Shown: one piece after another, positions 1 to 16,901 of the stretch
Layout of the letters: the number at the start of each line of letters is the position of its first letter
Position numbering within the stretch: the stretch's first letter is position 1
Assembly: GCA_963727625.1 (NCBI GenBank)
Contig: CAVSHR010000005.1
Coordinates: 192,001-256,000 of the forward strand
DNA from: an uncultured delta proteobacterium
GTDB lineage: Bacteria > Desulfobacterota > Binatia > UBA9968
Direction: 5' to 3'
Length of the DNA stretch: 64,000 nucleotides
The notes under the pieces: generated by a model
What the model was told of the DNA's origin: nothing
The model's input: the letters and a program-made list of their open reading frames with translations, nothing else
Databases searched by the model: none
Translations under genes and position numbers: made by a program

Positions 1-1886
1 TCGCGGGCACGGGTGGCGGGCGTACGGCCATGCCACCAACTGGCATCCATGGGGTAGACCTCCGGGTCAAAAATGACCCAATAAAAATGCCAGACTAAAA
101 TAGCCAGAGTGGCGAGCACCGCTTCGTAAAAGTGAATGGCGGTCGCGACATCGCTGATCCATTTTGGCAAAAAACTCAGGGCAAAATTCTCAAACCAAAG
201 GAGAAGGCCGGTCGCGGTCATTAAGAGCATGCCCCACATCAGAGCCCAGTATTCGAGCTTTTCGATATAGCTAAATTTTCCGAACCGCGGCCTAACGCGA
301 TCTAAACCCAGATTGTAACGTTGCAGGCGAAAAAAATCACCAAAGTCTTTTCGCCGGAACTTTAACCCGCGCAGCTTCGCCCGCACAGACGGACTGATCA
401 CCAATTGACCAAGATGCCAGAGCAGTGAGCCAATAAGCACCACCGCGGCAATTCGGTGAAGCATGCCGCGCAGCCCGAGCTGCGCTTCCCACGCGAGCAG
501 CGGAGCCGCCCACCATCCCTCGGGGTATTTCAGTGCAAACCCCGTATAAACCAGCATGAAGAAGCTCACCATGACCAAGCCATGCTGCCAGCGCAGGTCC
601 TTGCTCATCCTTTCCGGGACATTCACTGGGCCTTCAATAGGTAAGCGTTCGGTTCGTGCTTTACGCAAAAAATCGATTGAATTATGGAGAACCATAAAGC
701 CGATAGTGACGAAAATAACCCAGAGGTAGATCAGTCGGATCCAATACACGGCCGGCGAACTGACGGCTGAGGCCACAACATGAACCGGCCCTAATGAAAA
801 TCGTGTTCCAGCTCCTGGATGACACTGCCCGCAAGTCTTGGGAAGATTGGCTTTGTTCACATGAGAGCGTGGATCGGTGGAAGGAAGAATATCGTGCACA
901 CCGTGGCAGCTCGAGCAGTTAGCAGCCGTCACCTGGCCTGTGCGCAGCGCCAGGCCGTGAAAGCTCTCCTCAAAAGCCGGCACCTTATCCAGCGGCAGTC
1001 CGTATTTCTCACTCAAGCGGGCGCTGCCATGGCACCGCCCGCAGGTCTCACCGGAAACGTTCGCCGCAGAGACCGGTGAGTCCGGTTCATTTCGCTTGAG
1101 GATGCGATGTTCACCATGGCAATCGGTGCACACCGGCGCGTCGCGCACGCCGCGCGCCACTGCTTCACCGTGGATGCTTTTGCTATAAGTGGCGAAAATC
1201 TCGGAATGGCATTTCCCGCAGGTTTCGGGAACTCTGCTGCGCCAAATCTGCGACGCTGGATCGCCGGCGGGAAGTATGGCGTGCGCCCCGTGACAATCCG
1301 TGCAGACTGCGCCGGACTTGTCGGCCGCGACAGCGCGCGCGTGCACGCTCTGCAAATACGCCTCGACGGGCCGGACCAGCGGAATGTGGAATTTCTTTGT
1401 CAACTCCACGTTGGCGTGACAAACTGCGCAAGTCTTGGCGATGTTTTTGGGATGCACGGGGGAGCTCGGCTCGGAGCGGGAGACGAGCTTGTGGATATCG
1501 CCGTGACAGCTCGTGCATGTTGGCGGCTCTTTAAAACCCTGGTTGCGCGCCTTCGCGTGAATGCTTTCCCTATACGCCTTCACGCTCGCAGCATGGCAGC
1601 TATCGCATTGTACCGGCTTCAGTTCGGACTTGTGCGGCACCTGCGAAATATCGCGGTGGCAAGTCGTACACTCAAAGGCCCCATGAATGGATCGGTCGAA
1701 GGTCTCCTGATTGACTTGAAGCGAAATATTTTTGCCGTCGCGGCTCTTTTGCAAACCCGGCACGCTGTGGCAGCCGAGACAAACCTCCTTTGTCACCGGC
1801 TGCGCCCATAACAACGGGACGTATAGGAGGGAGATCAGGAAAACCAAAAAACAAAGACAGAGGCGATCTTTGGTTTCACCGACCAT
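1..1886 (-). CDS. CbcL-like fusion: N-terminal multiheme cytochrome c (11 CxxCH) + C-terminal FdnI/HydC-type b-type cytochrome membrane domain; 3' end runs off the window
   Basis: Not in the ORF track. Manual translation from ATG 1886 (MVGETKDRLCLCFLVFLISLLYVPLLWAQ) gives CLGCH, CTTCH, CDSCH, CTSCH, CAVCH, CTDCH, CGKCH, CTDCH, CGRCH, CSSCH, CGQCH, then TM helices with b-heme His motifs (WQHGLVM, LHRIAA, FSYIEKLEYWAL, IHFYEAVLATLAILVWHFY). Frame is open to position 1. Confidence 0.9.
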   Translation of the reverse strand, partial: MVGETKDRLCLCFLVFLISLLYVPLLWAQPVTKEVCLGCHSVPGLQKSRDGKNISLQVNQETFDRSIHGAFECTTCHRDISQVPHKSELKPVQCDSCHAASVKAYRESIHAKARNQGFKEPPTCTSCHGDIHKLVSRSEPSSPVHPKNIAKTCAVCHANVELTKKFHIPLVRPVEAYLQSVHARAVAADKSGAVCTDCHGAHAILPAGDPASQIWRSRVPETCGKCHSEIFATYSKSIHGEAVARGVRDAPVCTDCHGEHRILKRNEPDSPVSAANVSGETCGRCHGSARLSEKYGLPLDKVPAFEESFHGLALRTGQVTAANCSSCHGVHDILPSTDPRSHVNKANLPKTCGQCHPGAGTRFSLGPVHVVASAVSSPAVYWIRLIYLWVIFVTIGFMVLHNSIDFLRKARTERLPIEGPVNVPERMSKDLRWQHGLVMVSFFMLVYTGFALKYPEGWWAAPLLAWEAQLGLRGMLHRIAAVVLIGSLLWHLGQLVISPSVRAKLRGLKFRRKDFGDFFRLQRYNLGLDRVRPRFGKFSYIEKLEYWALMWGMLLMTATGLLLWFENFALSFLPKWISDVATAIHFYEAVLATLAILVWHFYWVIFDPEVYPMDASWWHGRTPATRAR

Positions 1887-1986
1887 TAGAAAAAGTACTC
1901 AATTAAACGTTGCCGCGGTCTTCCCGGTCGTACCGCCGGCTTGAGGCCTATGCCGCGGATCCACGACCCGGTTTACGTCGTTGGGA

Positions 1987-3087
1987 TCATTTCGTAGCGC
2001 TCATAGTGTAACCAAGATAGGTCAAAACGATCGAGTAAACAATCAGCAACAAGCCGAACGCCGTGGCTAAACGGCCTGCTGACTTGCCGATTAGCGCGCC
2101 GCGCTCAAGAAAAGGCATGCCGACGAGTATGAGACCGATCACTCCAAAGCCGACGACGCCGAGCAGGTCGCCCTCGATTCCGAGAATATGACCCGGCAGC
2201 AGCTTTAGAGTCTGAAACATCGCCATGAAATACCACTCGGGTTTGATGCCGATGGGCGCGGGCTGAAAGGGATCCGCCTTCTTGCCCAACTCGGCCGGAT
2301 AATAGGCGGCCAGAGCCGCGAGCAATCCAAGGACGCAGAGCCAACCGACTAGATCGCGTAAGAAAAAATTCGGGAAAAACGGCATAGTTTTTTTCTCGCC
2401 GCCATTTCGATCAACGCTCGCCGGCCGGCTCATGCCGTGCTTTTGCACCATAAAAAGATGTAGTCCGAGGACGACCGTAACGATCGCCGGCAAGATCGCC
2501 ACGTGGATGCCATAGAAGCGCGTCAGCGTCGCGCCGGTGACATCATTGCCGCCGCGCAGCAACCGGCGCAGAAATGGGCCTACCAGAGGCAAAACCCCGG
2601 GGATTTCGGTGCCGACGCGGGTGGCGAAATAGGCCAGCTCATTCCAGGGCAATAGATATCCGGTAAATCCAAACCCGAGACTGAGACCGAGGAGTCCACC
2701 GCCCGAAAGCCAGGTTAATTCGCGCGGACGCCTGTAGGCATGGAGCAGCAAAGCGCTGAACAGATGAATAAACATGGCCAAGATCATCAGGTTGGCCGAC
2801 CACGAGTGAATCGATCTGACCAGCCAACCGAATTGGACTTCGGTCATGATAAACTGAATGGATTCGAAAGCCTCGCCCGCGCTGGGTCGATAGTAGAGCA
2901 AAAGAAGAATACCCGTGGTGACCTGGATCATAAACAGAAACAACGTCATGCCGCCGAAGTAATACCAAAAAGTGTGACGATGCAGCGGCACCTGTTTTTT
3001 TTTGGCGAGTTTGGCAAAATCGCTAATCCCGATCCGTTCATCGAGCCAGAGCCAGAATTTTCCGTGCTTTACACCGGGAGCGTCCAT
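1987..3087 (-). CDS. qcrB: Cytochrome b subunit of a Rieske/cytochrome b (bc) complex, b6 + subunit IV fused
   Basis: [35 protein letters not shown] and the PEWY Qo motif. Confidence 0.95.
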
Positions 3088-3094
3088 TGCGCGC

Positions 3095-3556
3095 TTATAC
3101 CCTCCTGCTCACGATGATCTGATCGCCGCGCACGTTCACCGTGTACTCGTCCAGAGGTTTTGGCGGAGGTCCCTCGACATTCTTTCCGCTCAAGTCGAAA
3201 TGGCCATTATGGCAGGCGCACCAAATCTGGCTGAGGTCCGGACGATATTGCACGATACAGGCGAGGTGAGTACAGACCGCGGTAAACGCCTTGAGCTCAT
3301 CGTTGGGGGTCCTGATCAAGATTGCCGGTTGGCTGCCAAAGCGGAAGATCTGCCCGCTGTTGGCCTTTATTTCTTGTGGCTTGAGCGAGAGCGTCACCGA
3401 ATGCGCGGTCGATTCTGCAACTTGGGGCGGAATCAAATAACGGCTCAGAGGATAAGTCACCGCAACAAAAAATGCTCCGGCTGTGGTACCCAGGAACCAG
3501 TTGAGAAACCTTCTCCGCCCGTTATCAACCGTCGCCGATATTTCCGAGTGCTCCAT
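3095..3556 (-). CDS. qcrA: Rieske 2Fe-2S protein of the bc complex
   Basis: Tat motif RRRFL, boxes CTHLAC and CACHNG, GPPPKPL. Confidence 0.95.
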
Positions 3557-4842
3557 TATTGGTGATTCCCATTTGACCTGTTTGGTTTACTTTCCATTTG
3601 ACGGATCTTGAAGATCAAGCCGACAACTAGCCCCAAGATGATGATCGCCGAGACCGCCAAACCTTTGCGCCGGTAGCCCAATTCATCGAGCGCCTTCAGA
3701 CCTTTCCGGTAGACGGAATCGCTGATTTTGAGCCCGGGCTGGACTTCTTTATTGAAAATCGCCAGGTCGAACCCGTGAATCGCGGCGCGCGATTTGATCA
3801 GCGCGGTCTTGGCATCGTTGAGTTCGAATAGCGGCTGGCTCACTTCCATGCCTGCATGTTCTGCCTGGTTAAGTACCGCGAGCGACCTTTGGTAACTGAG
3901 ATTCAATCGCTCAATGGACGCGAACATGCGCGCCGCCAGCAACCCGCCCGTGGAAGTCGGCGAATGACAAGCCCCACAGATCGACTTGTCGCCGGTGCCC
4001 AACATTGCATCGCTGGTCTTAAGAATGGCGTGGTTGCTGTGACAGGTCGCGCAGCCGGGAGTACCCATTTGCACGAAAATTTTACTGTGCGGGCTTTTAT
4101 TGAACAATTCAAAATTAATTACGTGACACTGGCCGCAAACGTTCACCACCGAAGATATGCCCGGGGGTGCCGCACCGTGATTGCCATGACAGTCATTGCA
4201 GGTTGGCGCCGAAAGGTCCCCTTTGCTCGTCATGATGTTCCAGTGAACGCTTTTTTTATACTGCTCGACCTGGTCGGTGGGGATCTTGTAGGGCGCCATG
4301 TACTCTTTGTTGGCATGACATGATCCGCAAGTGTCAGCAACCCGCAGCGGATAGACGGATGAACGAGAATCATTGGGCGGCCTGATCGAATGCGGGATGT
4401 GGCAACTGGCACAGGTCGCCACTTTCTGATCTTTATGTTCTCTGAGCCTCCTGCCGTGAACCGACGTGTAGTATTCGGCGACCTGATCCACACGAAGGGA
4501 CGGATTGTATTTTTTCATGAAATTTGGGTCGGAATGGCATCGTCCACACACTTCGATGACCTGTGTCCGCGTCGGTTTTCCGATATAGCCCTTTTTCCGG
4601 TCCATCGCTTCCATACCGCCAACCGTGCCATCGCCGCCGTGACAGGCGACACAGCCGAAGCCTTTCGCCGCATGGATGTCTGTTTTATAAAGCTCGGCGG
4701 GCTTGGTCAGACGGTCCACGCCCATCGCCAAGTGGCAAACCGCGCAGCTCTCGGACTGCGGCTGGGCATCGACCCATTCCGGCCATGCCCAAACTAAGAG
4801 AAGCACAAAAGCGGGGACACCCAGACGAGAGAAAATTTTCAT
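3556..4842 (-). CDS. Nonaheme cytochrome c with signal peptide and C-terminal membrane anchor
   Basis: 9 CxxCH (CAVCH, CVACH, CGRCH, CASCH, CGSCH, CNDCH, CGQCH, CATCH, CGACH); C-terminal TM GLAVSAIIILGLVVGLIF; stop abuts the Rieske start. Confidence 0.92.
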   Translation of the reverse strand: MKIFSRLGVPAFVLLLVWAWPEWVDAQPQSESCAVCHLAMGVDRLTKPAELYKTDIHAAKGFGCVACHGGDGTVGGMEAMDRKKGYIGKPTRTQVIEVCGRCHSDPNFMKKYNPSLRVDQVAEYYTSVHGRRLREHKDQKVATCASCHIPHSIRPPNDSRSSVYPLRVADTCGSCHANKEYMAPYKIPTDQVEQYKKSVHWNIMTSKGDLSAPTCNDCHGNHGAAPPGISSVVNVCGQCHVINFELFNKSPHSKIFVQMGTPGCATCHSNHAILKTSDAMLGTGDKSICGACHSPTSTGGLLAARMFASIERLNLSYQRSLAVLNQAEHAGMEVSQPLFELNDAKTALIKSRAAIHGFDLAIFNKEVQPGLKISDSVYRKGLKALDELGYRRKGLAVSAIIILGLVVGLIFKIRQMESKPNRSNGNHQ

Positions 4843-6038
4843 CGATGGCGCCGGCTAAGCGTTTGGAGAAAACTTACGACCTGCGCCATTTCATCGCCTT
4901 TAAGGATGGGCCAGGACAGAGTTTCGTCACGCATTTTTTGCTCCATGGCGGCGCCATGGTTCCACATCGCCGCAACCACGTTCGCCGGCTCGTTTAAACC
5001 TCGGCTCTTTGCAAAATCCGGTGCTACTCGTCCGCCTTTTCCGCTGATGGAATGACACTCGAGACAACCTTTGGCTTTGACGAGTTGTTCACCGCGGTGC
5101 GGGTCTCCCGGTGCGGCGAAGTAGTCCACCGAGTACAAATAACCAACGATAGCCGCCAATTCGTCCGCTTGCAGCGGCGGAACGGTCACGGCGCGCCGCC
5201 GCATCTCACGCATCATAACCGGGCCCTTGTTCCACATCGCCGCGGCAAATTCGAAGAGACTGGGATAAATCTTCTTCCCGGCAAGCGCGGGTGCCACCGG
5301 CCCACCGCCTCCGTTGACCCCGTGGCAATTGACACAACCCCGAGACGCGAACAGTCGCTCTCCGTCCTCGACGCGCCCTGGCAGCACCTGTGTCGGCTCA
5401 TCGCCCCTCCGCCGAGACACCGATTTGACGTAAGCGATCAAATTTCTGAGTTCACTGCCGCTAAAATGCGGTCGCTTGACGCCGCGTGCTTGCATGGCCT
5501 CGGCCATCGCCGGACCATGATTCCACATGGTGGCAGCGAAAAAAATCGGCCCAAACTGGACGACCGAATCAAGGCTAGGTCCGAACACGCCGCCCACCCT
5601 CTCGATTTGATGACAAACTACGCATTGCTTGTCGAAGAATATTTTCTTTCCGGCCTTTGCATCGCCAACCGGTTCAAAATAATTAACCGTGTCGAGAAAT
5701 GCAATCAAATCGCCGGTCTCGCGCGGACTCAATTGCGGCGGCGGTTTTTTTAGTTTGCGCATTTGCGCCGCCATTTGTGGGATATGGTTCCACATCGCGC
5801 TCGCCAGATCATAAAAAGTGCGCCCTTTGGCGACGCGCCCGAGGTCGGCGGCGACCTTGCCCCCGACGCCGTTCACCGCATGACACCCGGAACAGCCCTT
5901 GGCGCCGAAGACCCGAGAGCCGGCAAGCGGATCCTGGGTAGAGCCTGCGAAGGGTTGCCCCTGAGCCGGTGCCGAAAAAAAACATACACTGATGAGTCCC
6001 AGGGCCAGGATCGCCATTCTTTTTTCAATTGGCTTCAT
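4839..6038 (-). CDS. Tetraheme cytochrome c made of four tandem class-I-like repeats
   Basis: CSGCH, CVVCH, CVNCH, CLECH, each followed by MWN(H/K)xxxM; likely start MKPIEKR at 6038 (ORF track 6122). Confidence 0.88.
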   Translation of the reverse strand: MKPIEKRMAILALGLISVCFFSAPAQGQPFAGSTQDPLAGSRVFGAKGCSGCHAVNGVGGKVAADLGRVAKGRTFYDLASAMWNHIPQMAAQMRKLKKPPPQLSPRETGDLIAFLDTVNYFEPVGDAKAGKKIFFDKQCVVCHQIERVGGVFGPSLDSVVQFGPIFFAATMWNHGPAMAEAMQARGVKRPHFSGSELRNLIAYVKSVSRRRGDEPTQVLPGRVEDGERLFASRGCVNCHGVNGGGGPVAPALAGKKIYPSLFEFAAAMWNKGPVMMREMRRRAVTVPPLQADELAAIVGYLYSVDYFAAPGDPHRGEQLVKAKGCLECHSISGKGGRVAPDFAKSRGLNEPANVVAAMWNHGAAMEQKMRDETLSWPILKGDEMAQVVSFLQTLSRRHR

Positions 6039-9653: not shown

Positions 9654-12080
9654 TTACGCCCTCCTCAATTTTACTTGCGTGTTGTTGAGCACGCCGAAGC
9701 CCCTTAAAATATCGGTCTCGTTCTCGATTAAATCGTTAGGGTTTGGCCCTTCGCCGCCGAACAATGGAATATGGACAATATCTGGAACAGTGCCGGAGTA
9801 TAATTTGGCGCGCAGTTTTATTCGGCCCTTTGCCGATTCGACCCACACCCAATCGTTCTGTTTGACACCTAGTGCCGCGGCCGTTTGGGGATGGATCTCC
9901 ACCCAACCTTCCCAGGAAGCCCGGAGGTGCACGGCTGGCTGTTCCAGCAGCCAAGGTTGGTTCTTGCCGCCGCCCATGGGCCGGCTCATCAGCCGGTAAG
10001 TATTGAGTCGAAGCGGAAACGACTCCGTTTTCTTGGCGCTCCGAATCGCCACCGCCGGCAGGTAAACTAAGTCCTCCGATTTGTCGGCGCCAAATTTCGC
10101 GAGCAGAGATTTGCGCGCATCTTGCGTCGGTGCGCGCTTGTCGAGCCATTGCTTGAGTCGCATGGAGTAAAATTCGAATTTCCCTGACGGTGTTTGCAGC
10201 AAAGCACCGCGACTCACCGGCAGGTTGCTCGGATCCCACCACGCTCCCCGCTGCAGCAAGGCATTCCAGAAAGCATTGTAGTCCTGGAATTCGGGCAGCC
10301 AGTAGCCCTGCCGCTCCAGGATCTTGCGGAGCGCTTCCTGGGAATTGACGGAAACGACGTAGCCTCGGCCGGCCTTGAAGAGCCCTTCCGCGCCTGCGTG
10401 GAGCAGTTCTTCAAAATTTTTCCACGGGAAATTTTTCGCCACCGTACCGCCGAGGGACTGCGCCAGCTGCAGGATCACGTCGGCGGTATTGCGCGACTGG
10501 TGCAGCGGCTTAGACGCAGGACGCGCGACGCTGAAACAAGTAAAGCCCGCCAGATGGTTGACCTGATCGTCTTGCCACCGCTCAAGGTAAGTCTGGTCGG
10601 GCAAAATAAGGTCCGCCATGGCGCTCGATTCGTCAAGGAAAGGTGTGAAGCTGACGATGAAAGGGATCTTCTTAAACGCCGCGGCGAATGCTTCCTTTGC
10701 CGGATGATTGGCGAGCGGGTTGGTGGCGAACAAGAATAAAGCGTTGACCGGGTAGGGCTTTCCACTCAAGATCCGTTGCGGCAAAAGCTGCGGCGCATCG
10801 TCAACCATAAAATAGTTTTTCTCGCCGGCGCCGTCGACCCGCGTCTGCGCCGCGCCTTGCCGCGCCGCCGCGTCGAGATCGAGCGCCGGTAACGGCATCA
10901 ACGGAAGTTCGCCTTGAGACCGTAATCCGCCTGTGACGCCGATGTTTCCGGCCAGGGCATTCAAGCTATGAATCGCCATGCGGGTGTAGATGTCATCGGA
11001 GCCGTAAGCCGGGCCGCGCTCGCCGATAACGATGGCGGGTTTGTTGGTCGCGAGACCGCGCGCAATTTCCAAGATGCTTTTCACCGGCACGCCGGTGGCA
11101 GCGGAGACCGTGAACAGGCCGTAATCCCTCAAGACGAGATTTTTAAAACCGAGATGCTGCTGTCCCTTGGGGTCGACCCAGTCTTCGAAGCCGAAAGTGG
11201 ATCGCTCGACGAATTTTTCGTCATAAAGCCCTTCGCGGATCAAGGCATTGGCGATGCCGAGGGCCAAGATTCCATCGGTTCCGGGGATGATGGGAATCCA
11301 CCGATCGGCCTTGATTGCCGTCGGCGAACGGCGCGGGTCGACCTGAACGAGCAAACCTCGTGGCCGATCGCCACTGCGGCGCAAGCGCGCGAACGCCTGT
11401 GATGCATGAACCGGCCCGACCCATGATTCCAGCAAGCTCGCGCCAAAGGAGAGGATGAACTGGGACTCCGCTAAATCGTAGGCGAGCGGCGTCGTCACTC
11501 CTTGCATGAGTTGATGCGCCAGCGCCGGCTTTTCCGGCGCAAAACAACGCAAGCGAATATAATTGGGCGTGCCGTAGGCTCGCGCGAATCGGTTCCACAA
11601 CTGATCGCGGTAACCGCGGTACTGCCCACCGAGGATCGCCACCGTGTGTGACAGTGCTTTCGCTCTGAGATCGGTCATACGCGCCGTGACCATGGACAAG
11701 GCCTCGTCCCAGCCAATGGAGCGGAATCGGCCCCGCTCACCGGCACGAACCAGCGGACCCTTGATACGATTGGGGTCGTAAAGAAGTTCCAGCCCGCCGA
11801 ACGCTTTAGGACAGACCGAACCGCGATTGATCGGATGAAACGGGTTTCCCGAGATTCCGCCAACTTCCCCGTCGAGCGTGCGCGCCAGCAAGCCGCAGCC
11901 ACCCGGGCACTGCTGGCAGATCGTCGGAACCACAACCTCCTCCGGCCTCGCCCACCGCTGCACGTCACCGGCGACCTGATCGACGGCAGAGAGCCGGTTT
12001 TGCATCAGAGCCGCCGCGCCCGCAGCACCGGTCAGGGTTTGAATGAATCGTCGTCGAGTAAAACGCATCGCACGCCTCAC
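9654..12080 (-). CDS. Tat-exported molybdopterin-oxidoreductase-fold subunit (QrcB/ActB1/PsrA-like)
   Basis: RRRFI Tat signal; FS0 motif CQQCPGGC...CPK; DPRRSPTA, PGTD, ADLILP..YLERW; C-terminal dinucleotide-binding domain. Confidence 0.9.
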   Translation of the reverse strand: MRRAMRFTRRRFIQTLTGAAGAAALMQNRLSAVDQVAGDVQRWARPEEVVVPTICQQCPGGCGLLARTLDGEVGGISGNPFHPINRGSVCPKAFGGLELLYDPNRIKGPLVRAGERGRFRSIGWDEALSMVTARMTDLRAKALSHTVAILGGQYRGYRDQLWNRFARAYGTPNYIRLRCFAPEKPALAHQLMQGVTTPLAYDLAESQFILSFGASLLESWVGPVHASQAFARLRRSGDRPRGLLVQVDPRRSPTAIKADRWIPIIPGTDGILALGIANALIREGLYDEKFVERSTFGFEDWVDPKGQQHLGFKNLVLRDYGLFTVSAATGVPVKSILEIARGLATNKPAIVIGERGPAYGSDDIYTRMAIHSLNALAGNIGVTGGLRSQGELPLMPLPALDLDAAARQGAAQTRVDGAGEKNYFMVDDAPQLLPQRILSGKPYPVNALFLFATNPLANHPAKEAFAAAFKKIPFIVSFTPFLDESSAMADLILPDQTYLERWQDDQVNHLAGFTCFSVARPASKPLHQSRNTADVILQLAQSLGGTVAKNFPWKNFEELLHAGAEGLFKAGRGYVVSVNSQEALRKILERQGYWLPEFQDYNAFWNALLQRGAWWDPSNLPVSRGALLQTPSGKFEFYSMRLKQWLDKRAPTQDARKSLLAKFGADKSEDLVYLPAVAIRSAKKTESFPLRLNTYRLMSRPMGGGKNQPWLLEQPAVHLRASWEGWVEIHPQTAAALGVKQNDWVWVESAKGRIKLRAKLYSGTVPDIVHIPLFGGEGPNPNDLIENETDILRGFGVLNNTQVKLRRA

Positions 12081-12742
12081 CTATGGCAAGTGACACAATC
12101 GTTAACTAAGCGCTGTCGCGAAACGGCGCTCGGATGCAAAGCACCGACCTTGGCACTGGCAAATGATTTAGTCTGCGTATGACAATCTATGCAATCCGCC
12201 ATTTTGAGACTTTTAAGCGGACGGGGCGGAGGACGATCGAGGGTTTCCATGGGGCCGTGGCATGATTGGCAAGCGAGCTTGGCGACCGATACATGGACTC
12301 GATGCGAGAAAAATACATGCGAGGGTAAGCGCCATACCCGTCGCCAAGGGATTTCTTGTCCCTTTTCACCAAAGGCCTTGAGCTTACGAATCTCCGGGCT
12401 TTTGGAATCCCCGCCGGCGTGGCAGGCAAGACATAACGCCGTGGGCGGCCGCCCGGCGACAAGATCCTTTTCGGCGCGCTGATGGCAACCCGTGCATGGA
12501 ATTTTTTGCGCGATATGTGTTTTATGGGGAAACTCGATGGGCTGCTTAACGGCTGGCGCGCCCCAATCGGCTCCGTAACCGAAGGCCAACGCGACCAAGA
12601 CAATTCCAAGGATTATGATTACTCGTTTCACCCGCAATCGTGCAGCCATTAACCCGCTACTACGCTCCTTGATCACACCGGCGATTTTAGAATCGATTAC
12701 CGCAAGCTGTGTGCCAGGAGTCTTAGCTGGGAGATTCGTCAC
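12077..12742 (-). CDS. Membrane-anchored pentaheme cytochrome c (ActA/QrcA-like)
   Basis: N-terminal TM; QPIEFPHKTH, CTGCH, CLACH, IPWRRVWRLP.HVFFSHRVH, CQSCH, CIDCH, CVTCH. Confidence 0.92.
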   Translation of the reverse strand: MTNLPAKTPGTQLAVIDSKIAGVIKERSSGLMAARLRVKRVIIILGIVLVALAFGYGADWGAPAVKQPIEFPHKTHIAQKIPCTGCHQRAEKDLVAGRPPTALCLACHAGGDSKSPEIRKLKAFGEKGQEIPWRRVWRLPSHVFFSHRVHVSVAKLACQSCHGPMETLDRPPPRPLKSLKMADCIDCHTQTKSFASAKVGALHPSAVSRQRLVNDCVTCHR

Positions 12743-12871
12743 GAAACGGCGATTATTTCCTGGAGATAAGAAATAATCTTAAAAACAGTCGCAGGTTTTG
12801 GAACCGCAAAAGAAAAAAACCGGTGCTAGTGAGGGCTTAAGAGAGAATCGCCGATATTGCGTCTGAGAGAA

Positions 12872-12910: not shown

Positions 12911-12925
12911 AAAGAAACTCGCAGG

Positions 12926-13303
12926 TTATTTAGCCGGCTTGTAAGGAGGATTGGCGATGCTACGAATATAGGCGACGACGTCCCAGATCTCTTGGTCGGT
13001 CAGCTTCTTTTTCGACGCCGGCATGAACGGCGCTTTTTTCATCGCCGCGCCGCCGTTTTTGATGATGTCAAACAAATACTTGTCGCTCAGCGCGTTCATC
13101 ACTTTGCCGTTAGTGTGATCCTGCGGTTTGGGATTCAAAGCGGCGGCGGCCGGTCCGTCGCCCTTGCCGGTAGCACCGTGACAGCCGACACAATTGGCAT
13201 CGTATTTGACTTTCCCGGCTTTAGCGTCGCCCTTCGTCTGAGCGAACGCCATACCTGAAAAAAGTGATACCACAAGCAAAGCCCAGGAAATTTTCCGGCT
13301 CAT
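12926..13303 (-). CDS. Periplasmic monoheme cytochrome c (MtoD-like position)
   Basis: Signal peptide, CVGCHG..GKGDGP, MPA..KKLTDQEIWDVVAYIR. Confidence 0.92.
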   Translation of the reverse strand: MSRKISWALLVVSLFSGMAFAQTKGDAKAGKVKYDANCVGCHGATGKGDGPAAAALNPKPQDHTNGKVMNALSDKYLFDIIKNGGAAMKKAPFMPASKKKLTDQEIWDVVAYIRSIANPPYKPAK

Positions 13304-13418
13304 TACCTAAGTCTCCCTTTTTGACCGTTTAGACGAATGCACTGCAGTTTTATTCGAACTCCCCCCATACTGGATTTAACCATCAAGATTCAACTACTCG
13401 CCAGTACCTAGACAGTAA

Positions 13419-15569
13419 CTAGAACTTGAACTTCAGCCCGATCATACCGACATGAGCCGTGTACGACCCTTTGAACTGATCACCGAGATAGATCGAGCGC
13501 AGTTGGCCTGAGTTCGTATCGAGATCTCCCATCCAGAGCTTCATGATGTCGACTCCGTAGTCTTTACTGTCAAAGCGATTGAAGTAATAGCCGACTTGCA
13601 GGGCAACATTTTTGTGTATCTGATATTCGAGCCGGGCAAGCAACTCATGCCAGGAGTTGCTGTTATTGGGCCAGTTCGGGTCCTCGTTCGTGTTGTGGTT
13701 GGTGATTTGGCTCACGCCCCGTGAGAATCCATACTGGATCCGAAATCCCAGAACGTTTTTGATGAGATCCACATCGCTGCCCAGGCTAAATGTATTGACG
13801 ACATCTTTGCCACGGCTGTGACTGGGGTCGTCATCATACTTCTGGTTCCAGCTAGACCAGTCGAAATTGTAATCGGCGAAGAACTTAAGCCATTCTAGCG
13901 GAGCATAAACAGCACCTATAGAGGGGGAGTAGTTCTGATCGTTGTGTAGGCGGCGGTCGACTTCAGGATAGTTATTGCTGAGGTAATCAAATCCAGCGTG
14001 GAAGCCGAGAGTCTCCCAGGGGCTGACGTCGGCGAACAGGCTGACTTTGTCCTGATTGCGTTTCGTCAGAAAGAACATCTGGCTACGGTTCTCGCCGTGG
14101 TAGCCCGGAGCGAAGCGCCAGGAATGTTGGTAGGATGCCCTGAGCAACAACCAGGAGAGCGGCCTGATGTCAACCGTCGGCTTGATCTTGAATTCGTCCT
14201 GGTTCAGGGGCTCGGTAAAGCCTCCATCCGCAATGTCGTTTATGGACCTGTGGGTTTTCTCCCAACTAAAATCAAACTTTCCCGTAAGCCACCGAGTGAA
14301 ACTATAGCCCGCTCCGACACCGGCACTATTCTTCGAGTACCGATAAGGATAGGCCATCATCCAATCGTTAGCGCCGGAAGCGCCCTGATCATTGCGCACC
14401 GTTCCATTGGTCGAGACCGGTTTGGTGCGGTTATCCAAGTCATAGAAGCGATAGTAGGCCTTCAGGTTCAAACGGTCGACGAATTTGTTGACAAAGGTAA
14501 GGTTGACCATCGTTGGCCGGACATCCCCCTCCAGGCTATTCCGGCTCAACATCGGCTGCGGTATGGCGCTGTTAATCGTGAAAGGTAAAAAGGAATCATC
14601 CTGAAGCCTCCAGCCGTATGAAACCGTGCCCAAAAAGTGGGTCTTCAGGGGAAGCTTGGCCGTTCCGGTCAGGGTAAAAGTATGGGCCTGGTTGCTGGGA
14701 TAAAGATCGACGCGCCCACGGCAAGGCCCTGCGCCGGTGGTGTAGTCAATGACCGCGGCGTCGGTGCATCCGGGCCCCGTGGCCGCCGGATTGTCAAAAA
14801 TAAGCGTGCTAATGTTGTTGTGGAAAACCGAACCGTTGTACTTAAGCCCCAGCGACCAGCCTTTGCCGGCATACTCTCCGCCAAGCTCGATATTGTGGGT
14901 CCGGTAGTCGATCGGTTCGGCAAGCTCGGTAATGCCGCTGGAGCTGCCTGTCCCAATTGGAAATGCGATCGCTCTTTTACCGTCCGTGTTTTGCTGCCAG
15001 TATTTGCCGGTGAAGCTCCATCCTGAGTTGGGTGTGTAGCGGACCGAGATCTTGCCGATCTTATTAAGCATCTTCAGGTCAATGTCTCTTGTGGTACTGG
15101 GGTCGTTGATCCAGTTTGAGAATGTCGTTGCGTCATCCGCAGTGGGTCTGCTACGCAACGTGTAGGTACCGCCCCTCATCCGAAAGGGAGTACGGGCGTT
15201 GTCGATATTAAAGACATGCGGGATCTGGTCCCACTCGAGCTCGACATTGAAGAGCCCATACCGACCGAAGCGCAAACTATAGTTCTGATCGTCGCGGCCC
15301 ACTGAGCCGGCGTCAAATTTGAAAAAGAAGTCCTGCTTCTTACTGCCGATCATCAACTCGAGTTGGGGCACGACAACGCTTTCTGGGATATCCCGGTATC
15401 CCTGGAACCTCGACTGATCGCCTTGAAACGCCCTTGGCAGCCCATCCACCTCCGCCGAACCACTGAGCGTGTAATTGCCGATGTCGATTTCCGCCCGGGC
15501 AGCAGAGGCCGAGACCAAAACGAGCGCAAGGCTTAAACTTACAATCAAGAAACTAGCTCTCCGTTCCAT
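13419..15569 (-). CDS. mtrB: MtrB/PioB-family outer-membrane beta-barrel porin
   Basis: Signal peptide, beta-strand pattern with C-terminal F, EPIDYRTH and PSNQAH motifs; directly downstream of a decaheme gene. Confidence 0.9.
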   Translation of the reverse strand: MERRASFLIVSLSLALVLVSASAARAEIDIGNYTLSGSAEVDGLPRAFQGDQSRFQGYRDIPESVVVPQLELMIGSKKQDFFFKFDAGSVGRDDQNYSLRFGRYGLFNVELEWDQIPHVFNIDNARTPFRMRGGTYTLRSRPTADDATTFSNWINDPSTTRDIDLKMLNKIGKISVRYTPNSGWSFTGKYWQQNTDGKRAIAFPIGTGSSSGITELAEPIDYRTHNIELGGEYAGKGWSLGLKYNGSVFHNNISTLIFDNPAATGPGCTDAAVIDYTTGAGPCRGRVDLYPSNQAHTFTLTGTAKLPLKTHFLGTVSYGWRLQDDSFLPFTINSAIPQPMLSRNSLEGDVRPTMVNLTFVNKFVDRLNLKAYYRFYDLDNRTKPVSTNGTVRNDQGASGANDWMMAYPYRYSKNSAGVGAGYSFTRWLTGKFDFSWEKTHRSINDIADGGFTEPLNQDEFKIKPTVDIRPLSWLLLRASYQHSWRFAPGYHGENRSQMFFLTKRNQDKVSLFADVSPWETLGFHAGFDYLSNNYPEVDRRLHNDQNYSPSIGAVYAPLEWLKFFADYNFDWSSWNQKYDDDPSHSRGKDVVNTFSLGSDVDLIKNVLGFRIQYGFSRGVSQITNHNTNEDPNWPNNSNSWHELLARLEYQIHKNVALQVGYYFNRFDSKDYGVDIMKLWMGDLDTNSGQLRSIYLGDQFKGSYTAHVGMIGLKFKF

Positions 15570-15580
15570 CTCAGACCTCC

Positions 15581-16519
15581 TTATCTCTGAAAGAACATTC
15601 CAGCCGGATGATTCGAGCCATGGATTTGGCTGTGACAGTTGGCGCAGCTCCGGTTGAAAAAGCCACGCTGGGTTTTCAGATCATTGGTTCTATGACCCGA
15701 GTGGCACTGGGTACAAAGCCTCGGCATGCGCACCTTGAGCAAACGGTCATTGACGCTGCCGTGCGGTTCGTGGCAATTGGTGCAATTATCAGAAACCGGC
15801 GGATGCTCAAAAAGAAATGGCCCGCGCCGCTCGGCGTGGCAGGTGTAACAGTTCTCGTTGACACTCGCCTGTATGAGCTGAGAAGGGTTCGGCGTTCCGT
15901 GCGGGTTATGGCAATCCGTACAGGTAATCTTTCCTTCCCTCATGGGCATGTGGGAAGAACGCATCAGCTGCGCTTTTCTCTGGAGATGACATTGGCCGCA
16001 AACCTCGGCTTCGGCCCGCTTGTTGTAGAATGGAGTCTTTTCTCCGACCTTGGCAAGCTGGTAGCGATCGGTGGTTTTTTCCATAATGGTGTGGCAATTG
16101 ACGCAGGCTATTCCCCGGCTCGCGTGCGGGCTTGCCTCCCAGTAGGTTTGGATACCGCGCTGGTGACAACCAAGACATGCTTCATTTTGGACTTTCGCCG
16201 ACTCCCCCGAGTCCTTGCGGAATGTGATCAGTCCGCCGACTCCTTTGCCGCCACCGGCCGCGACGTGGTTGCTTCCAGGACCGTGGCAGCTCTCGCACGC
16301 TTGTTTTTCCATCGCGTTACGCGGATTGTGCAGAAAAATCTTGCCCATGACGGTCTGCGAGAATTTTTCCACCTGCGCCCCGTGGCACGCTTGGCAAACT
16401 TCGCTGCCCATATAAGTAGCCGGGGCAGGCTTGGCCGCATCGGCCGAGGCCGACCACGCGAGTCGTGCGGACCCAACTAAAGATAATATAAAAATCGTGG
16501 CAATCACGGACCGCTTCAT
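15581..16519 (-). CDS. mtrA: DmsE/MtrA/PioA/MtoA-family decaheme cytochrome c
   Basis: 10 CxxCH; CESCHGPGS, SHMPMREGK.TCTDCHNPHG, RGPFLFEHPPV, IHGSNHP; start MKRSV after GGAGG (ORF track 16570). Confidence 0.95.
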   Translation of the reverse strand: MKRSVIATIFILSLVGSARLAWSASADAAKPAPATYMGSEVCQACHGAQVEKFSQTVMGKIFLHNPRNAMEKQACESCHGPGSNHVAAGGGKGVGGLITFRKDSGESAKVQNEACLGCHQRGIQTYWEASPHASRGIACVNCHTIMEKTTDRYQLAKVGEKTPFYNKRAEAEVCGQCHLQRKAQLMRSSHMPMREGKITCTDCHNPHGTPNPSQLIQASVNENCYTCHAERRGPFLFEHPPVSDNCTNCHEPHGSVNDRLLKVRMPRLCTQCHSGHRTNDLKTQRGFFNRSCANCHSQIHGSNHPAGMFFQR

Positions 16520-16607
16520 GAATCCTCCGTGGCGAATTTGGCAACAAGCGTTAAACAGATGATATGCCATAGGCTTATAGCACTGAGGAAATATCCAAGT
16601 CTATGGG

Positions 16608-16901
16608 TCAACTGGCCCAATTTTCGTCACTGTCTTGCAAATTCTGACGCCACAGCTCCAACGGACAGCTCACCTGTTTTCGCACCGGACAGCCATCGAG
16701 AGTTAGAGCGTAGATCGCCGCCTCGATGCGATTGCGCAAGCGCAGTTTCCGCAGAATATTTTCCACGTGGCGCTTCACGGTGGCCGGACTGATACGCAGG
16801 TCCGAGGCGATTTCGCGATTGGTTTTGGACCGCGAGATCAACCGCAGCACGCGTCCTTCGGCCGCGGTCAGGCCCTCTACCGTGCATTTAGAAACATTCA
16901 C
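16608..16901 (-). CDS. Stand-alone LuxR/NarL-type HTH regulator with C-terminal CP-x6-CP tail
   Basis: LTAAEGRVL..KTNREIA..L.ISPATVKRHVENILRKL..RNRIEAA; no receiver domain. Confidence 0.85.
   Translation of the reverse strand: MNVSKCTVEGLTAAEGRVLRLISRSKTNREIASDLRISPATVKRHVENILRKLRLRNRIEAAIYALTLDGCPVRKQVSCPLELWRQNLQDSDENWAS

What the first reader, a model, noticed from the sequence alone, without database searches (positions are those of the whole stretch)
1..16901. One co-oriented cluster links an outer-membrane porin-cytochrome conduit to three different quinone-interacting modules (Qrc/ACIII-like, Rieske-b, CbcL-like)
Seen: 15 same-strand genes, many with overlapping or abutting stops and starts, encoding 44 CxxCH motifs (10+1+5+4+4+9+11). 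Order: luxR, mtrA/pioA, mtrB/pioB, cyt c, pentaheme, Mo-fold, 4Fe-4S, nrfD, small TM, two tetrahemes, nonaheme, Rieske, cyt b, multiheme/b fusion. Known: MtrAB/PioAB/MtoAB carry electrons across the outer membrane, while Qrc/ACIII, bc complexes and Geobacter CbcL each couple quinones to periplasmic cytochromes and are usually alternatives at separate loci. Inference: this is a complete extracellular-electron-transfer chain, possibly bidirectional or potential-switching. No extracellular MtrC/OmcA is seen and a monoheme follows the porin as in mtoAB-D, which leans toward electron uptake (Fe(II) or humic oxidation) with reverse electron transport. This is my best candidate for an undescribed system.
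Basis: partly seen in the sequence, partly recalled or inferred. Interest (0 to 1): 0.9.

Follow-up and report, generated by a model that had tools for sequence, protein, structure and literature searches.

The report
Mobile extracellular electron-transfer gene island
A 20-kb block of 19 genes in an uncultured soil bacterium (Candidatus Binatia) combines an outer-membrane electron conduit with four different membrane modules that connect to the quinone pool; smaller versions of this arrangement are already described, so it is a rich new variant rather than a new kind of system.

Summary
The 15 co-oriented genes and 44 CxxCH motifs are there. The cluster runs on left of the window to 19 genes and 58 CxxCH, adding an ImcH-like 12-haem quinol-dehydrogenase-type cytochrome and two monohaem cytochromes. 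Eight of the genome's 13 multihaem ORFs lie here.

The whole block is a 20.1-kb island. In three same-genus genomes its two flanking genes are neighbours. The full gene order recurs in five other Binatia genomes, while other relatives carry sub-combinations.

The "Qrc/ACIII-like" module is a separate lineage, and the scan has noted it before on other DNA. It has an ActC-like NrfD with a Qrc-type quinone-site Asp, a split B subunit that keeps the FS0 cysteines and a Cys aligned with the Mo ligand of PsrA, no ActF, and tetrahaem cytochromes in place of ActE.

An extracellular-electron-transfer chain is well supported; its direction is not. No MtrC or RuBisCO was found. I lean slightly to uptake (about 0.40) over export (0.35).

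It is not undescribed. Zixibacteria RBG-1 (2013), the Geobacter ext cluster and mtoAB-mtoD-mtoC/cymA already link conduits with Rieske/b, CbcL-type or NapC-type modules. I found nothing in print that joins an ACIII-like module or all four modules to a conduit, or that reports the island in Binatia.

The parts
16608..16901 (-). LuxR/GerE-type HTH regulator (97 aa), first gene of the island
   Evidence: PF00196 E 2.3e-16. Relatives at 61-65% identity sit upstream of the decahaem in L008, L019, L025, L096, L102, L115 and L119.
15581..16570 (-). Periplasmic decahaem cytochrome, MtrA/MtoA/PioA/DmsE family. The likely start is M18, giving 312 aa.
   Evidence: 10 CxxCH. TIGR03508 scores 256.9 bits against a cut-off of 192.2. 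Matches 6r2q_A at E 5e-62. The database form is 312 aa.
13419..15569 (-). MtrB/PioB-family outer-membrane beta-barrel (716 aa), 11 nt after the decahaem gene
   Evidence: PF11854 E 2.4e-93. TIGR03509 scores 271.6 against 240.05. Matches 6r2q_B at E 4.6e-14.
12926..13303 (-). Monohaem class-I cytochrome c (125 aa) in the position of mtoD
   Evidence: PF00034 E 1.9e-16. A monohaem c follows the porin within 400 nt in 13 of 19 decahaem-porin loci.
12077..12742 (-). Membrane-anchored pentahaem cytochrome (ActA/QrcA-like)
   Evidence: 5 CxxCH. One hydrophobic segment at 31-62. The best NCBIfam hit is QrcA, 80.2 bits against a cut-off of 180.
9654..12080 (-). Tat-exported molybdopterin-fold subunit (808 aa) that keeps the FS0 cysteines and Cys179
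   Evidence: PF00384, PF01568 and PF04879. The best solved relatives are ArrA 6cz7 (1.5e-60) and PsrA 2vpw (1.6e-56), with ActB only at 1e-12. Cys179 aligns with PsrA Cys173 and is conserved in the close clade.
8970..9653 (-). Four-cluster FeS subunit (QrcC/ActB2-like)
   Evidence: The best NCBIfam hit is QrcC, 288 bits against a cut-off of 400. It is 43-49% identical to the C-terminal part of the genome's own ActB proteins.
7643..8986 (-). NrfD-family quinone-interacting membrane subunit (447 aa), ActC-like
   Evidence: PF03916 E 3.1e-38. Best PDB hits are ActC chains: 6f0k_C 1.3e-76, then 6btm_C, 6lod_C and 8k9e_C. Quinone-site and channel residues were read from the alignment.
7365..7622 (-). 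Small two-helix membrane protein of an unnamed family that travels with this module
   Evidence: No Pfam or NCBIfam hit. Two hydrophobic segments. Relatives at 29-87% identity follow NrfD in most loci. The nearest Atlas clusters are 'hypothetical protein' from Methylomirabilota, Binatota and Ignavibacteriota.
6179..7375 (-). Tetrahaem cytochrome 1: four class-I cytochrome c domains, each with a WNHxxxM motif
   Evidence: 4 CxxCH. PF00034 matches in 4 stretches. The start overlaps the small membrane gene by 11 nt.
4839..6038 (-). Tetrahaem cytochrome 2, a paralogue of the former
   Evidence: 4 CxxCH. PF00034 matches in 4 stretches. It stays with nonahaem-Rieske-b in relatives that lack the ACIII-like module (L101, L102).
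3556..4842 (-). Nonahaem cytochrome with a C-terminal membrane helix, in the position of cytochrome c1
   Evidence: 9 CxxCH. Hydrophobic segment at 392-417. All nine haem motifs are invariant in 15 sequences. Complex prediction with cytochrome b gave weak support: 0.56 against a best control of 0.01.
3095..3556 (-). Rieske 2Fe-2S protein with a Tat-type N-terminus
   Evidence: PF00355 and PF25471. The CTHLAC and CACHNGH boxes are visible. The best NCBIfam hit is the b6f PetC type, below its cut-off.
1987..3087 (-). Cytochrome b (366 aa), b6-plus-subunit-IV-like in one chain
   Evidence: PF00033 E 1.3e-50 and PF00032. H94, H108, H195, H210 and PEWY are invariant in 14 sequences. The best NCBIfam hits are cytochrome b6 and Geobacter ExtP, both below their cut-offs.
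1..1886 (-). 11-haem cytochrome fused to a HydC/FdnI-type b cytochrome (CbcL/MtoC architecture). It runs off the window; the full gene is L002:15922-17886, 654 aa. The island continues left of the window with the ImcH-like 599-aa cytochrome (L002:14060-15859) and two monohaem cytochromes (L002:13632-13976 and 13201-13530).
   Evidence: 11 CxxCH. PF01292 scores 47 bits against a cut-off of 30.1. Full length. For the 599-aa protein: PF03264 at residues 94-181, three N-terminal hydrophobic segments, CGELCH at residue 125 and 12 CxxCH.

Best explanation
The region is one 20.1-kb, 19-gene accessory island in a Candidatus Binatia genome, and it encodes a complete electron path between the cell exterior and the inner-membrane quinone pool.

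Shown: an MtrA-family decahaem and an MtrB-family barrel form the outer-membrane conduit, with no MtrC-type partner found. Three monohaem and two tetrahaem class-I-type cytochromes are the likely periplasmic carriers. Four inner-membrane modules can each meet quinones:
1. an ACIII/Qrc-related NrfD complex;
2. a Rieske/cytochrome b complex with a nonahaem protein in place of c1;
3. a CbcL/MtoC-type multihaem-b fusion;
4. an ImcH/CymA-type NapC/NirT-like 12-haem cytochrome.

Inferred: these act as one chain. My best single guess, at about 0.40, is net uptake. Soluble reductants such as Fe(II) or reduced humics would be oxidised at the surface-exposed end of the decahaem. Electrons would pass to the monohaem cytochrome encoded right after the porin, as in mtoAB-mtoD. 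From there they would go partly to the organism's cytochrome oxidases and partly into the quinone pool through the quinone modules working as quinone reductases. This would be lithoheterotrophic energy gain, not autotrophy. The alternative modules would serve donors of different potential.
For: Unit:
- The island is absent from three same-genus genomes, where the two flanking genes lie 33 to about 400 nt apart. In this genome they are 20,095 nt apart.
- The decahaem-to-cytochrome-b order recurs in 5 other genomes. It continues through the fusion, the 599-aa cytochrome and a monohaem c in L098.
- 8 of the genome's 13 multihaem ORFs lie here.
- The genome has two ordinary ACIII clusters and 3 haem-copper oxidases elsewhere, so the island's modules are extra.

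Direction:
- No OmcA/MtrC-family hit was found at 98.45% completeness.
- A monohaem class-I cytochrome follows the porin within 400 nt in 13 of 19 decahaem-porin loci. Relatives L112 and L113 read decahaem-porin-c-c-NapC-like-CbcL-like. That is the layout of the mtoAB-mtoD-cymA/mtoC clusters of iron oxidisers (PMC6295460 and PMC5566968, passages).
- The three monohaem cytochromes carry G-x-MP-type motifs. From recalled knowledge these are typical of His/Met, higher-potential cytochromes.
- The NrfD subunit has Asp at the quinone-site position where the quinone reductase QrcD has Asp120 and ActC has His139 (PMC8076601).
- Castelle 2013 reached the same reading for a similar cluster.
Against: - Direction is not shown by anything here.
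- No RuBisCO large subunit was found in this genome, in 0 of 25 family genomes, and in only 3 of 301 class genomes. Reverse electron transport for CO2 fixation therefore has no visible purpose.
- The 599-aa protein has ImcH architecture. The ImcH family has been implicated only in quinol oxidation (PMC6295460).
- ACIII and Rieske/b complexes are normally quinol oxidases.
- MtrAB cores work in both directions, and MtoA/PioA are not a separate clade (PMC8805035).
- The sixth haem ligand of the tetrahaem domains (His or Met in WNHxxxM) is undetermined.
- The modules are separable. L101 and L102 lack the ACIII-like module, L016 and L017 lack the conduit, and 67 of 80 NrfD-anchored loci show no decahaem within the fetched span.
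- Transcription evidence is only a few short identical contigs in one RNA library.
Confidence: 0.4

Rival explanations
1. Same hardware, opposite net direction. The island would be an anaerobic or micro-oxic respiratory add-on. It would oxidise quinol through up to four alternative quinol dehydrogenases tuned to acceptors of different potential, as ImcH, CbcL and CbcBA are in Geobacter. Electrons would leave through MtrAB to soluble or colloidal acceptors such as chelated Fe(III), Mn(III/IV) or humic quinones.
For: A CbcL-type and an ImcH-type gene lie side by side. Having both is reported as typical of metal reducers, and ImcH has been implicated only in quinol oxidation (PMC6295460). ACIII-type and Rieske/b complexes are quinol oxidases by default. 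There is no RuBisCO. Binatia are described as aerobic heterotrophs or methylotrophs with menaquinone (preprint 10.1101/2020.09.14.296780, passages). The Geobacter ext cluster links a porin with Rieske/b in a reducer.
Against: No extracellular MtrC/OmcA-type cytochrome was found. The periplasmic carriers are class-I cytochromes, not the low-potential multihaem carriers of known reducers; this rests on recalled knowledge. The gene after the porin is a monohaem c, as in mto clusters. Homology of the 599-aa protein to Geobacter ImcH itself was not tested.
Confidence: 0.35
2. The island is not one functional chain. It would be an accretion of independent respiratory modules: an ACIII-like and a Rieske/b complex serving ordinary aerobic or denitrifying chains, next to a small mtoAB-mtoD-type unit. 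They would travel together only because they sit on the same island.
For: The modules occur apart. 67 of 80 NrfD-anchored loci from many phyla show no decahaem in the fetched span. L016 and L017 have the ACIII-like, Rieske/b and fusion genes without the conduit. L101 and L102 have the conduit and Rieske/b without the ACIII-like module, which in that genome (G611) lies about 70 kb away on the same contig (L014 and L101). No promoter or terminator signal above chance separates or joins the genes.
Against: The genome already has two canonical ACIII clusters, one beside a caa3-type oxidase. The island holds no terminal oxidase or reductase. The ACIII-like module lies between the conduit and the Rieske/b genes with short gaps in 6 genomes. 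It also sits beside a decahaem in Rokubacteria/Methylomirabilota loci L021, L024, L026, L034 and L051 and in L052, i.e. in another phylum.
Confidence: 0.15
3. The molybdopterin-fold subunit is a working Mo/W-bisPGD enzyme, so the 'ACIII-like' module would be a periplasmic oxidoreductase for an unknown small substrate, wired to cytochromes and quinone. It could even be a DmsAB-like terminal reductase served by the DmsEF-like conduit. This is not exclusive of the readings above.
For: The subunit has a Tat signal and four FS0 cysteines. Cys179 aligns with PsrA Cys173 and lies in an RxRC[FLM]xPE motif kept throughout the close clade of the 77 homologues aligned. The genome's own ActB proteins lack that Cys, and one lacks FS0 and all Pfam molybdopterin domains. 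The nearest solved relatives are true enzymes, ArrA and PsrA. Shewanella dmsEFAB couples a DmsE-family decahaem and porin to a molybdoenzyme (PMC11302344, title and abstract in the listing only).
Against: The RGRY motif of ArrA and the residue aligned with PsrA His145 are not kept (the roles of these residues are recalled). No NCBIfam enzyme model reaches its cut-off, and QrcB, which is cofactor-less (PMC6303296), is the best hit. The FeS gene overlaps the NrfD gene, and the module has the ACIII/Qrc subunit set, which argues for an inner-membrane location and against a secreted DmsAB-like enzyme. Pfam domain scores do not separate it from the Cys-less ActB at C4.
Confidence: 0.2

Closest known systems
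Mto clusters of Gallionellaceae and Dechloromonas (mtoA-mtoB-mtoD with cymA or mtoC); PioAB of Rhodopseudomonas
   Same: A decahaem and an MtrB/PioB porin without MtrC. A monohaem cytochrome gene follows the porin. A NapC/NirT-type and/or a CbcL-type (MtoC) inner-membrane cytochrome lies in the same cluster (PMC6295460 and PMC5566968).
   Different: Here both inner-membrane types are present, and both are larger (12 and 11 haems). An ACIII-like complex and a Rieske/b complex are inserted between them and the conduit. The host is a Binatia heterotroph without RuBisCO. The monohaem cytochromes look His/Met-type, not like MtoD; the bis-His ligation of MtoD is recalled.
Mtr-type cluster of Zixibacteria RBG-1 (Castelle et al. 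2013, PMC3903129)
   Same: MtrA and MtrB homologues, two monohaem cytochromes, several multihaem cytochromes and a Rieske/cytochrome b (PetAB) complex in one cluster, with no extracellular cytochrome. Fe(II) oxidation was proposed on that basis.
   Different: In RBG-1 the ACIII is described as a separate cluster with an aa3-type oxidase. Here an ACIII-like module lies inside the cluster. I could not see Supplementary Fig. S9, so the gene-by-gene comparison is open.
Geobacter sulfurreducens extHIJKLMNOPQS (conduit plus Cbc5-type bc complex)
   Same: A porin-like outer-membrane protein, 5-, 12-, 10- and 4-haem cytochromes, a Rieske protein and a cytochrome b in one conserved cluster (PMC5877670). 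This cytochrome b gives ExtP as its second-best NCBIfam hit (E 5.6e-63, below cut-off).
   Different: ExtI is not an MtrB/PioB barrel. The ext cluster has no NrfD complex and no CbcL- or ImcH-type gene. The host is a strict metal reducer.
Alternative complex III (ActABCDEF; 6F0K, 6BTM, 6LOD, 8K9E) and QrcABCD
   Same: Pentahaem anchor, molybdopterin-fold subunit, four-cluster FeS subunit and a ten-helix-type NrfD subunit. The proton-channel residues of ActC are kept.
   Different: The B subunit is split, as in Qrc. The FS0 cysteines and a Mo-ligand-position Cys are kept, unlike the cofactor-less ActB and QrcB. There is no ActF. Two tetrahaem cytochromes replace monohaem ActE. His139 of ActC is Asp and Asp253 is Val. 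All four Qrc NCBIfam models score below their cut-offs. Identity to the genome's own ActC proteins is only 36-39%.
Geobacter inner-membrane quinol dehydrogenases CbcL and ImcH
   Same: One protein has an N-terminal multihaem domain and a C-terminal HydC/FdnI-type b cytochrome. The other has three N-terminal helices, a CX3CH motif next to the third helix, a NapC/NirT-like stretch and further CX2CH motifs.
   Different: Haem counts are 11 and 12 here, against 9 and 7 in Geobacter. The two genes are adjacent and sit in an mtrAB cluster, whereas Zhong and Shi 2018 found no mtrAB/mtoAB next to imcH. Sequence homology to GSU0274 and GSU3259 was not tested.

Membership tests
MtrAB/MtoAB/PioAB porin-cytochrome conduit | Periplasmic decahaem of the MtrA/DmsE family | tested here: met
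   10 CxxCH. TIGR03508 scores 256.9 bits against 192.2. Matches 6r2q_A at 5e-62.
MtrAB/MtoAB/PioAB porin-cytochrome conduit | MtrB/PioB-family barrel encoded next to the decahaem | tested here: met
   PF11854 E 2.4e-93; TIGR03509 scores 271.6 against 240.05; 11-nt gap; matches 6r2q_B at 4.6e-14.
MtrCAB (metal-reducing form) | Extracellular MtrC/OmcA-family lipoprotein cytochrome | tested here: not met
   No TIGR03507 match at E <= 0.01 in the genome, which is 98.45% complete. The lone hexahaem at C12:171544 has only a generic PF22113 hit and no porin neighbour.
MtrAB/MtoAB/PioAB porin-cytochrome conduit | [quoted passage not shown] | not testable with these tools
   Needs proteoliposome, electrode or genetic assays.
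Alternative complex III | ActC-type NrfD subunit with conserved quinone-site His139, Ser164, Asp169 and Asp253 (>95% in 521 ActC sequences, PMC8076601) | tested here: not met
   The best PDB hits are ActC chains. In the 6f0k_C alignment Ser164 and Asp169 are kept, but His139 is Asp and Asp253 is Val (positions counted by hand).
Alternative complex III | Fused, cofactor-less ActB (B1+B2) | tested here: not met
   There are separate 808-aa and 227-aa genes. The FS0 cysteines and Cys179 are present. The genome's own ActB proteins are fused (1032 and 1012 aa) and lack the Cys.
Alternative complex III | Second NrfD-like subunit ActF and monohaem ActE | tested here: not met
   The island has one NrfD gene. 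Two tetrahaem cytochromes follow the small membrane protein. The genome's canonical clusters do have an ActF-like second NrfD-size ORF and a monohaem ORF.
Alternative complex III | Membrane-anchored pentahaem ActA | tested here: met
   5 CxxCH and one N-terminal hydrophobic segment.
QrcABCD | Scores above the NCBIfam equivalog cut-offs for QrcA, B, C and D | tested here: not met
   80.2 against 180, 285.2 against 440, 288.2 against 400, and 47.9 against 570.
QrcABCD | Split B and C subunits, and Asp at the TMH2 quinone-site position (QrcD Asp120) | tested here: met
   Separate genes. Asp aligns with ActC His139, the position listed as Asp120 in QrcD.
Mo/W-bisPGD enzymes (Psr/Phs/Arr group) | FS0 cluster cysteines and a Mo-ligand residue | tested here: inconclusive
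   CxxCxxxC...C is present, and Cys179 aligns with PsrA Cys173. The RGRY motif of ArrA is not kept, and no enzyme model reaches its cut-off. Metal content is not testable here.
Rieske/cytochrome b complexes | Rieske cluster boxes, four haem-b histidines and a PEWY motif | tested here: met
   CTHLAC and CACHNGH. H94, H108, H195, H210 and P283-Y286 are invariant in 14 sequences. Pfam hits.
Rieske/cytochrome b complexes | Cytochrome c1 or cytochrome f subunit | tested here: not met
   No such gene is present. A nonahaem protein with a C-terminal helix precedes Rieske by a 1-nt overlap. Its binding to cytochrome b has weak predicted support only.
CbcL/MtoC/MtrH | N-terminal multihaem domain (3-23 CX2CH) joined to a HydC/FdnI-type b cytochrome with about six helices | tested here: met
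   11 CxxCH. PF01292 scores 47 bits against 30.1. The crude scan finds four distinct C-terminal hydrophobic regions (six overlapping windows), so the helix count is not settled. Definition from PMC6295460.
CbcL/MtoC/MtrH | Sequence homology to GSU0274 or MtoC | not tested
   No named reference sequence was available through the tools.
ImcH | Three N-terminal helices, CX3CH next to the third helix, NapC/NirT-like stretch, 5-9 CX2CH, about 500 aa | tested here: inconclusive
   Hydrophobic segments at 7-36, 39-68 and 89-115; CGELCH at 125; PF03264 at 94-181. However, it has 12 CX2CH and 599 aa, and homology to GSU3259 was not tested. Definition from PMC6295460.

The most novel reading that the evidence does not exclude
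The island is a horizontally mobile, self-contained 'gearbox' for two-way extracellular electron exchange. One MtrAB-type conduit would be served by four alternative quinone modules, each matched to a different redox window. These modules include the first ImcH-type gene seen beside mtrAB and an ACIII-like complex whose molybdopterin subunit is still catalytically competent. A single transfer event could then turn an aerobic soil heterotroph into an organism that both respires and oxidises extracellular redox species.
Probability: 0.15. Interest if true: 0.8.

Novelty: new variant of a known kind. Interest (0 to 1): 0.55.

Why it matters
Candidatus Binatia are abundant in soils and aquifers. 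They are described only as aerobic methylotrophs and alkane degraders with ACIII and an incomplete bc complex (preprint 10.1101/2020.09.14.296780). None of my four library searches for this link found a paper tying them to Mtr-type electron transfer.

A decahaem of this clade is common. It occurs in 55 of 301 sampled class genomes, a count that includes two genomes flagged unpublished (G474, G600). At E <= 1e-20 it matches 7375 of the 8000 scored candidates in the metagenome protein collection.

The island offers a compact natural experiment on a long-standing gap: which inner-membrane complex connects MtrAB/MtoAB-type conduits to the quinone pool, and what sets the direction of flow. Relatives carry the conduit with different subsets of the four modules, so comparative expression or heterologous transfer of defined subsets is directly feasible. 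The ACIII-like lineage that keeps FS0 and a Mo-position cysteine also bears on how ACIII and Qrc arose from true molybdoenzymes.

Tried and rejected
1. Promoter and terminator scan of 1-17400: 7 promoter-like sites against 8.3 expected. The minus-strand terminator-like sites all lie inside genes. It says nothing about operon structure.

2. Public reads: no run held more than 0.11 of the sampled words. One salt-marsh RNA library gave short contigs with 0-1 differences on the porin (14126-14276, 14309-14459), the 3' end of the Mo-subunit gene (9649-9809) and tetrahaem 1 (6930-7121). None bridges a gene junction, and DNA carry-over was not controlled, so this is no evidence of co-transcription.

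3. Naming the decahaem as MtoA, PioA or MtrA by relatives: the best 120 hits were all close, unnamed or 'DmsE family' proteins. Phylogeny against named references could not be done. By PMC8805035 it would not give direction anyway.

4. The VIT1/rubrerythrin (MbfA-like) iron-transporter gene next to the island looked like an iron link. Its orthologues lie on other contigs than the cluster in 5 of 5 relatives, and it is simply the conserved flank of the insertion site.

5. Island borders: no flanking repeat beyond one 10-mer, which is expected by chance about 0.1 times. There is no integrase or tRNA gene inside. GC is 0.553 against 0.566 for the genome. The mobility mechanism is unknown.

6. Pfam molybdopterin domain scores do not separate the island's subunit from the Cys-less ActB at C4.

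7. DmsEFAB-like reading (secreted molybdoenzyme served by the conduit): rejected as the main reading because the FeS gene overlaps the NrfD gene and the subunit set is ACIII/Qrc-like.

8. Complex prediction on cytochrome b plus the nonahaem protein: weak support only. The score was 0.56 and the best of 3 controls 0.01. That mark was reached by 58 of 80 solved complexes and 2 of 110 mismatched pairs, but scores of 0.60 or under came from only 7 of those 80 and from both mismatches that passed. The runs agree in at least 96% of contacts, and the partner pLDDT is at least 84. I used my own alignments.

9. Atlas look-ups gave only unnamed or NapC/NirT-named clusters.

Full report
**Observation.**
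- One search counts 10, 1, 5, 4, 4, 9 and 11 CxxCH motifs, 44 in all. One further CxxCH sits in the FeS subunit within a ferredoxin-type cysteine motif.
- Eight of the 14 junctions are overlaps or gaps of at most 11 nt.
- Pfam and NCBIfam confirm each family.
- The window is G000:C5:192001-256000, and the cluster continues to its left.
  - The multihaem-b fusion is 654 aa.
  - Next comes a 599-aa cytochrome with 12 CxxCH plus one CxxxCH.
  - Two monohaem cytochromes of 114 and 109 aa follow.
  - The total is 19 genes and 58 CxxCH.
- Only 13 ORFs in the 6.6-Mb genome hold three or more CxxCH, and eight of them are here.
- Record titles of the nearest relatives name Candidatus Binatia, as earlier notes of this scan also did.

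**The conduit.**
- The decahaem passes the DmsE/MtrA-family cut-off and matches MtrA of the solved MtrCAB complex (6r2q_A, 5e-62).
- The 716-aa barrel passes both MtrB/PioB models and matches 6r2q_B.
- No OmcA/MtrC-family match was found in the genome, which is 98.45% complete.

**The ACIII/Qrc-like module.** It comprises a pentahaem protein, a Mo-fold subunit, an FeS subunit, NrfD, a small two-helix protein and two tetrahaem cytochromes.
- The nearest solved relatives of the NrfD subunit are ActC chains (1.3e-76 to 6.2e-66).
- It is only 36-39% identical to the ActC proteins of the genome's two canonical ACIII clusters. Those clusters have fused ActB, an ActF-size second NrfD and a monohaem ORF, and one lies beside a caa3-type oxidase.
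- I compared it with the R. marinus ActC residues listed in PMC8076601 (passages). The proton-path residues, Ser164 and Asp169 are kept. His139 is Asp, as in QrcD and DsrP, and Asp253 is Val (counted by hand).
- The Mo-fold subunit is closer to ArrA and PsrA than to ActB.
- It has a Tat motif and the four FS0 cysteines. Cys179 aligns with PsrA Cys173; the role of that residue as Mo ligand is recalled.
- In 77 aligned homologues the FS0 motif is nearly universal. The RxRC[FLM]xPE cysteine is kept only in the close clade.
- The genome's own ActB at C4 keeps FS0 but not the Cys. The one at C5 keeps neither and has no Pfam molybdopterin domain.
- QrcB and ActB are cofactor-less according to PMC6303296 (passages).
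- All Qrc models score below their cut-offs.
- The module is therefore a third lineage, neither ACIII nor Qrc. The scan's earlier notes describe the same family in other genomes. Those are leads, not evidence.

**The Rieske/b module.**
- The Rieske boxes, the four haem-b histidines and PEWY are present and invariant.
- The best models are b6-type and Geobacter ExtP, both below their cut-offs.
- A nonahaem protein with a C-terminal helix takes the place of c1. Its nine haem motifs are invariant in 15 sequences.
- Complex prediction with cytochrome b gave weak support only. The score was 0.56 against a best control of 0.01. The mark was reached by 58 of 80 solved complexes and 2 of 110 mismatches. 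Scores of 0.60 or under came from 7 of those 80 and from both passing mismatches. The runs agree in at least 96% of contacts, the partner pLDDT is at least 84, and I used my own alignments.

**The other two quinone candidates.**
- The 654-aa protein has the CbcL/MtoC architecture.
- The 599-aa protein has three N-terminal hydrophobic segments, CGELCH next to the third, and a NapC/NirT-like stretch at residues 94-181.
- That is the architecture given for ImcH in PMC6295460 (passages), apart from 12 rather than 5-9 CX2CH motifs.
- Homology to the Geobacter proteins themselves was not tested.

**Conservation.**
- Of 80 loci anchored on NrfD relatives (59-95% identity, many phyla), 13 also hold a decahaem relative. 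Eleven hold nonahaem, Rieske and cytochrome b together.
- The order from decahaem to cytochrome b recurs in five other genomes: L008, L019, G644, G492 and G693.
- L098 (G492, another genus) continues through the fusion, the 599-aa cytochrome and a monohaem c.
- L101 and L102 have the conduit, tetrahaem 2, nonahaem, Rieske and b without the ACIII-like module.
- L016 and L017 have the modules without the conduit.
- L112 and L113 (another family) read decahaem-porin-c-c-599-like-fusion-like...Rieske-b.
- Rokubacteria/Methylomirabilota loci also place a decahaem beside the ACIII-like module.
- Distribution is patchy.
  - The decahaem was found in 55 of 301 sampled class genomes at E <= 1e-30. This count includes the unpublished G474 and G600.
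  - It was found in 9 of 25 family genomes and 0 of 6 same-genus genomes of that sample.
  - The Mo-fold subunit was found in 5 of 30 other same-genus genomes.

**Island.**
- In G705, G706 and G709 (same genus, no cluster), the VIT1/rubrerythrin gene and an alkaline-phosphatase-like gene are neighbours.
- Their DNA aligns to the two sides of the cluster. The gap is 33 nt in G705, against 20,095 nt in G000.
- Two further genomes were uninformative: in one the flanks are on different contigs, in the other one flank was not found.
- In five relatives that carry the cluster, the VIT1 orthologue lies on another contig.
- No flanking repeats, integrase or GC shift were seen.
- The 19 genes are thus gained or lost as one block. 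The mechanism is unknown.

**Direction.**
- For uptake:
  - No MtrC was found.
  - A monohaem class-I cytochrome follows the porin in 13 of 19 decahaem-porin loci, as mtoD does.
  - The L112 layout mirrors mtoAB-mtoD-cymA/mtoC.
  - The NrfD quinone site has the Qrc-type Asp.
- For export:
  - No RuBisCO was found.
  - ImcH-like and CbcL-like genes lie side by side.
  - ACIII-type and bc-type complexes are quinol oxidases by default.
- MtoA and PioA are not a separate clade (PMC8805035, passages).
- My estimate is uptake 0.40, export 0.35, not one chain 0.15, other 0.10.

**Prior art.** I saw passages of these papers, not their supplements.
- Zixibacteria RBG-1 (PMC3903129).
- Geobacter ext cluster (PMC5877670).
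- Mto, CbcL and ImcH survey (PMC6295460).
- Survey of iron-oxidiser genomes (PMC5566968).
- Rokubacteria as neighbours of PioAB (PMC10654088).
- The Binatota preprint, which reports ACIII in 76 genomes and Rieske plus b without c1, but no Mtr.
- Searches found no paper joining an ACIII-like module or all four modules to mtrAB, and none on Mtr in Binatia. Subscription journals are not covered.

**Limits.** No transcript structure, no biochemistry and no named reference phylogenies were available, and supplements were closed.

Noticed in passing
window 17167-18378 (-): A VIT1 transporter fused to a rubrerythrin/ferritin-like domain (MbfA-like iron exporter) lies directly beside the island. It is the conserved flank of the insertion site, not part of the island.
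   Followed up: yes
window 18673-20274 (+): A 533-aa protein with an AAA_22 ATPase domain and a C-terminal bacterial SH3 domain. Function unexplored.
   Followed up: no
G000:C5:770000-781400 and G000:C4:121983-129200: Two canonical ACIII clusters, one beside a caa3-type oxidase. Together with the island's subunit they form a graded series of decay of the molybdopterin domain: FS0 and Cys kept; FS0 only; neither, with no Pfam molybdopterin domain.
   Followed up: partly
G000:C7:15834-18305 (+): A cytochrome b fused to three class-I cytochrome c domains joined by Ala/Pro/Ser-rich linkers, in an 823-aa ORF. It is a further bc-type complex outside the island.
   Followed up: no
G000:C12:171544-172719 (+): A lone secreted hexahaem cytochrome with a PF22113 (MtrC/MtrF domain) hit of 37 bits, just above the cut-off. 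It has no porin or cytochrome neighbours and no lipobox.
   Followed up: partly
G466:C1:674398-696305: In one of only 3 RuBisCO-positive genomes among 301 Binatia sampled, the RuBisCO large-subunit gene lies about 20 kb from that genome's decahaem-porin cluster. This could mark a lithoautotrophic lineage.
   Followed up: no
L014 and L101 (G611:C133): The same 132.6-kb contig carries the conduit/Rieske-b/CbcL-like cluster and, about 70 kb away, the ACIII-like module alone. A weak VIT1 paralogue lies about 7.5 kb upstream of the decahaem.
   Followed up: partly
L018, L021, L024 and L035 against window 7643-9653: The NrfD and FeS subunits are 78-82% and 85-89% identical between Binatia and Rokubacteria/Methylomirabilota MAGs. 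That is very high for different phyla and suggests transfer of the ACIII-like module between them.
   Followed up: no
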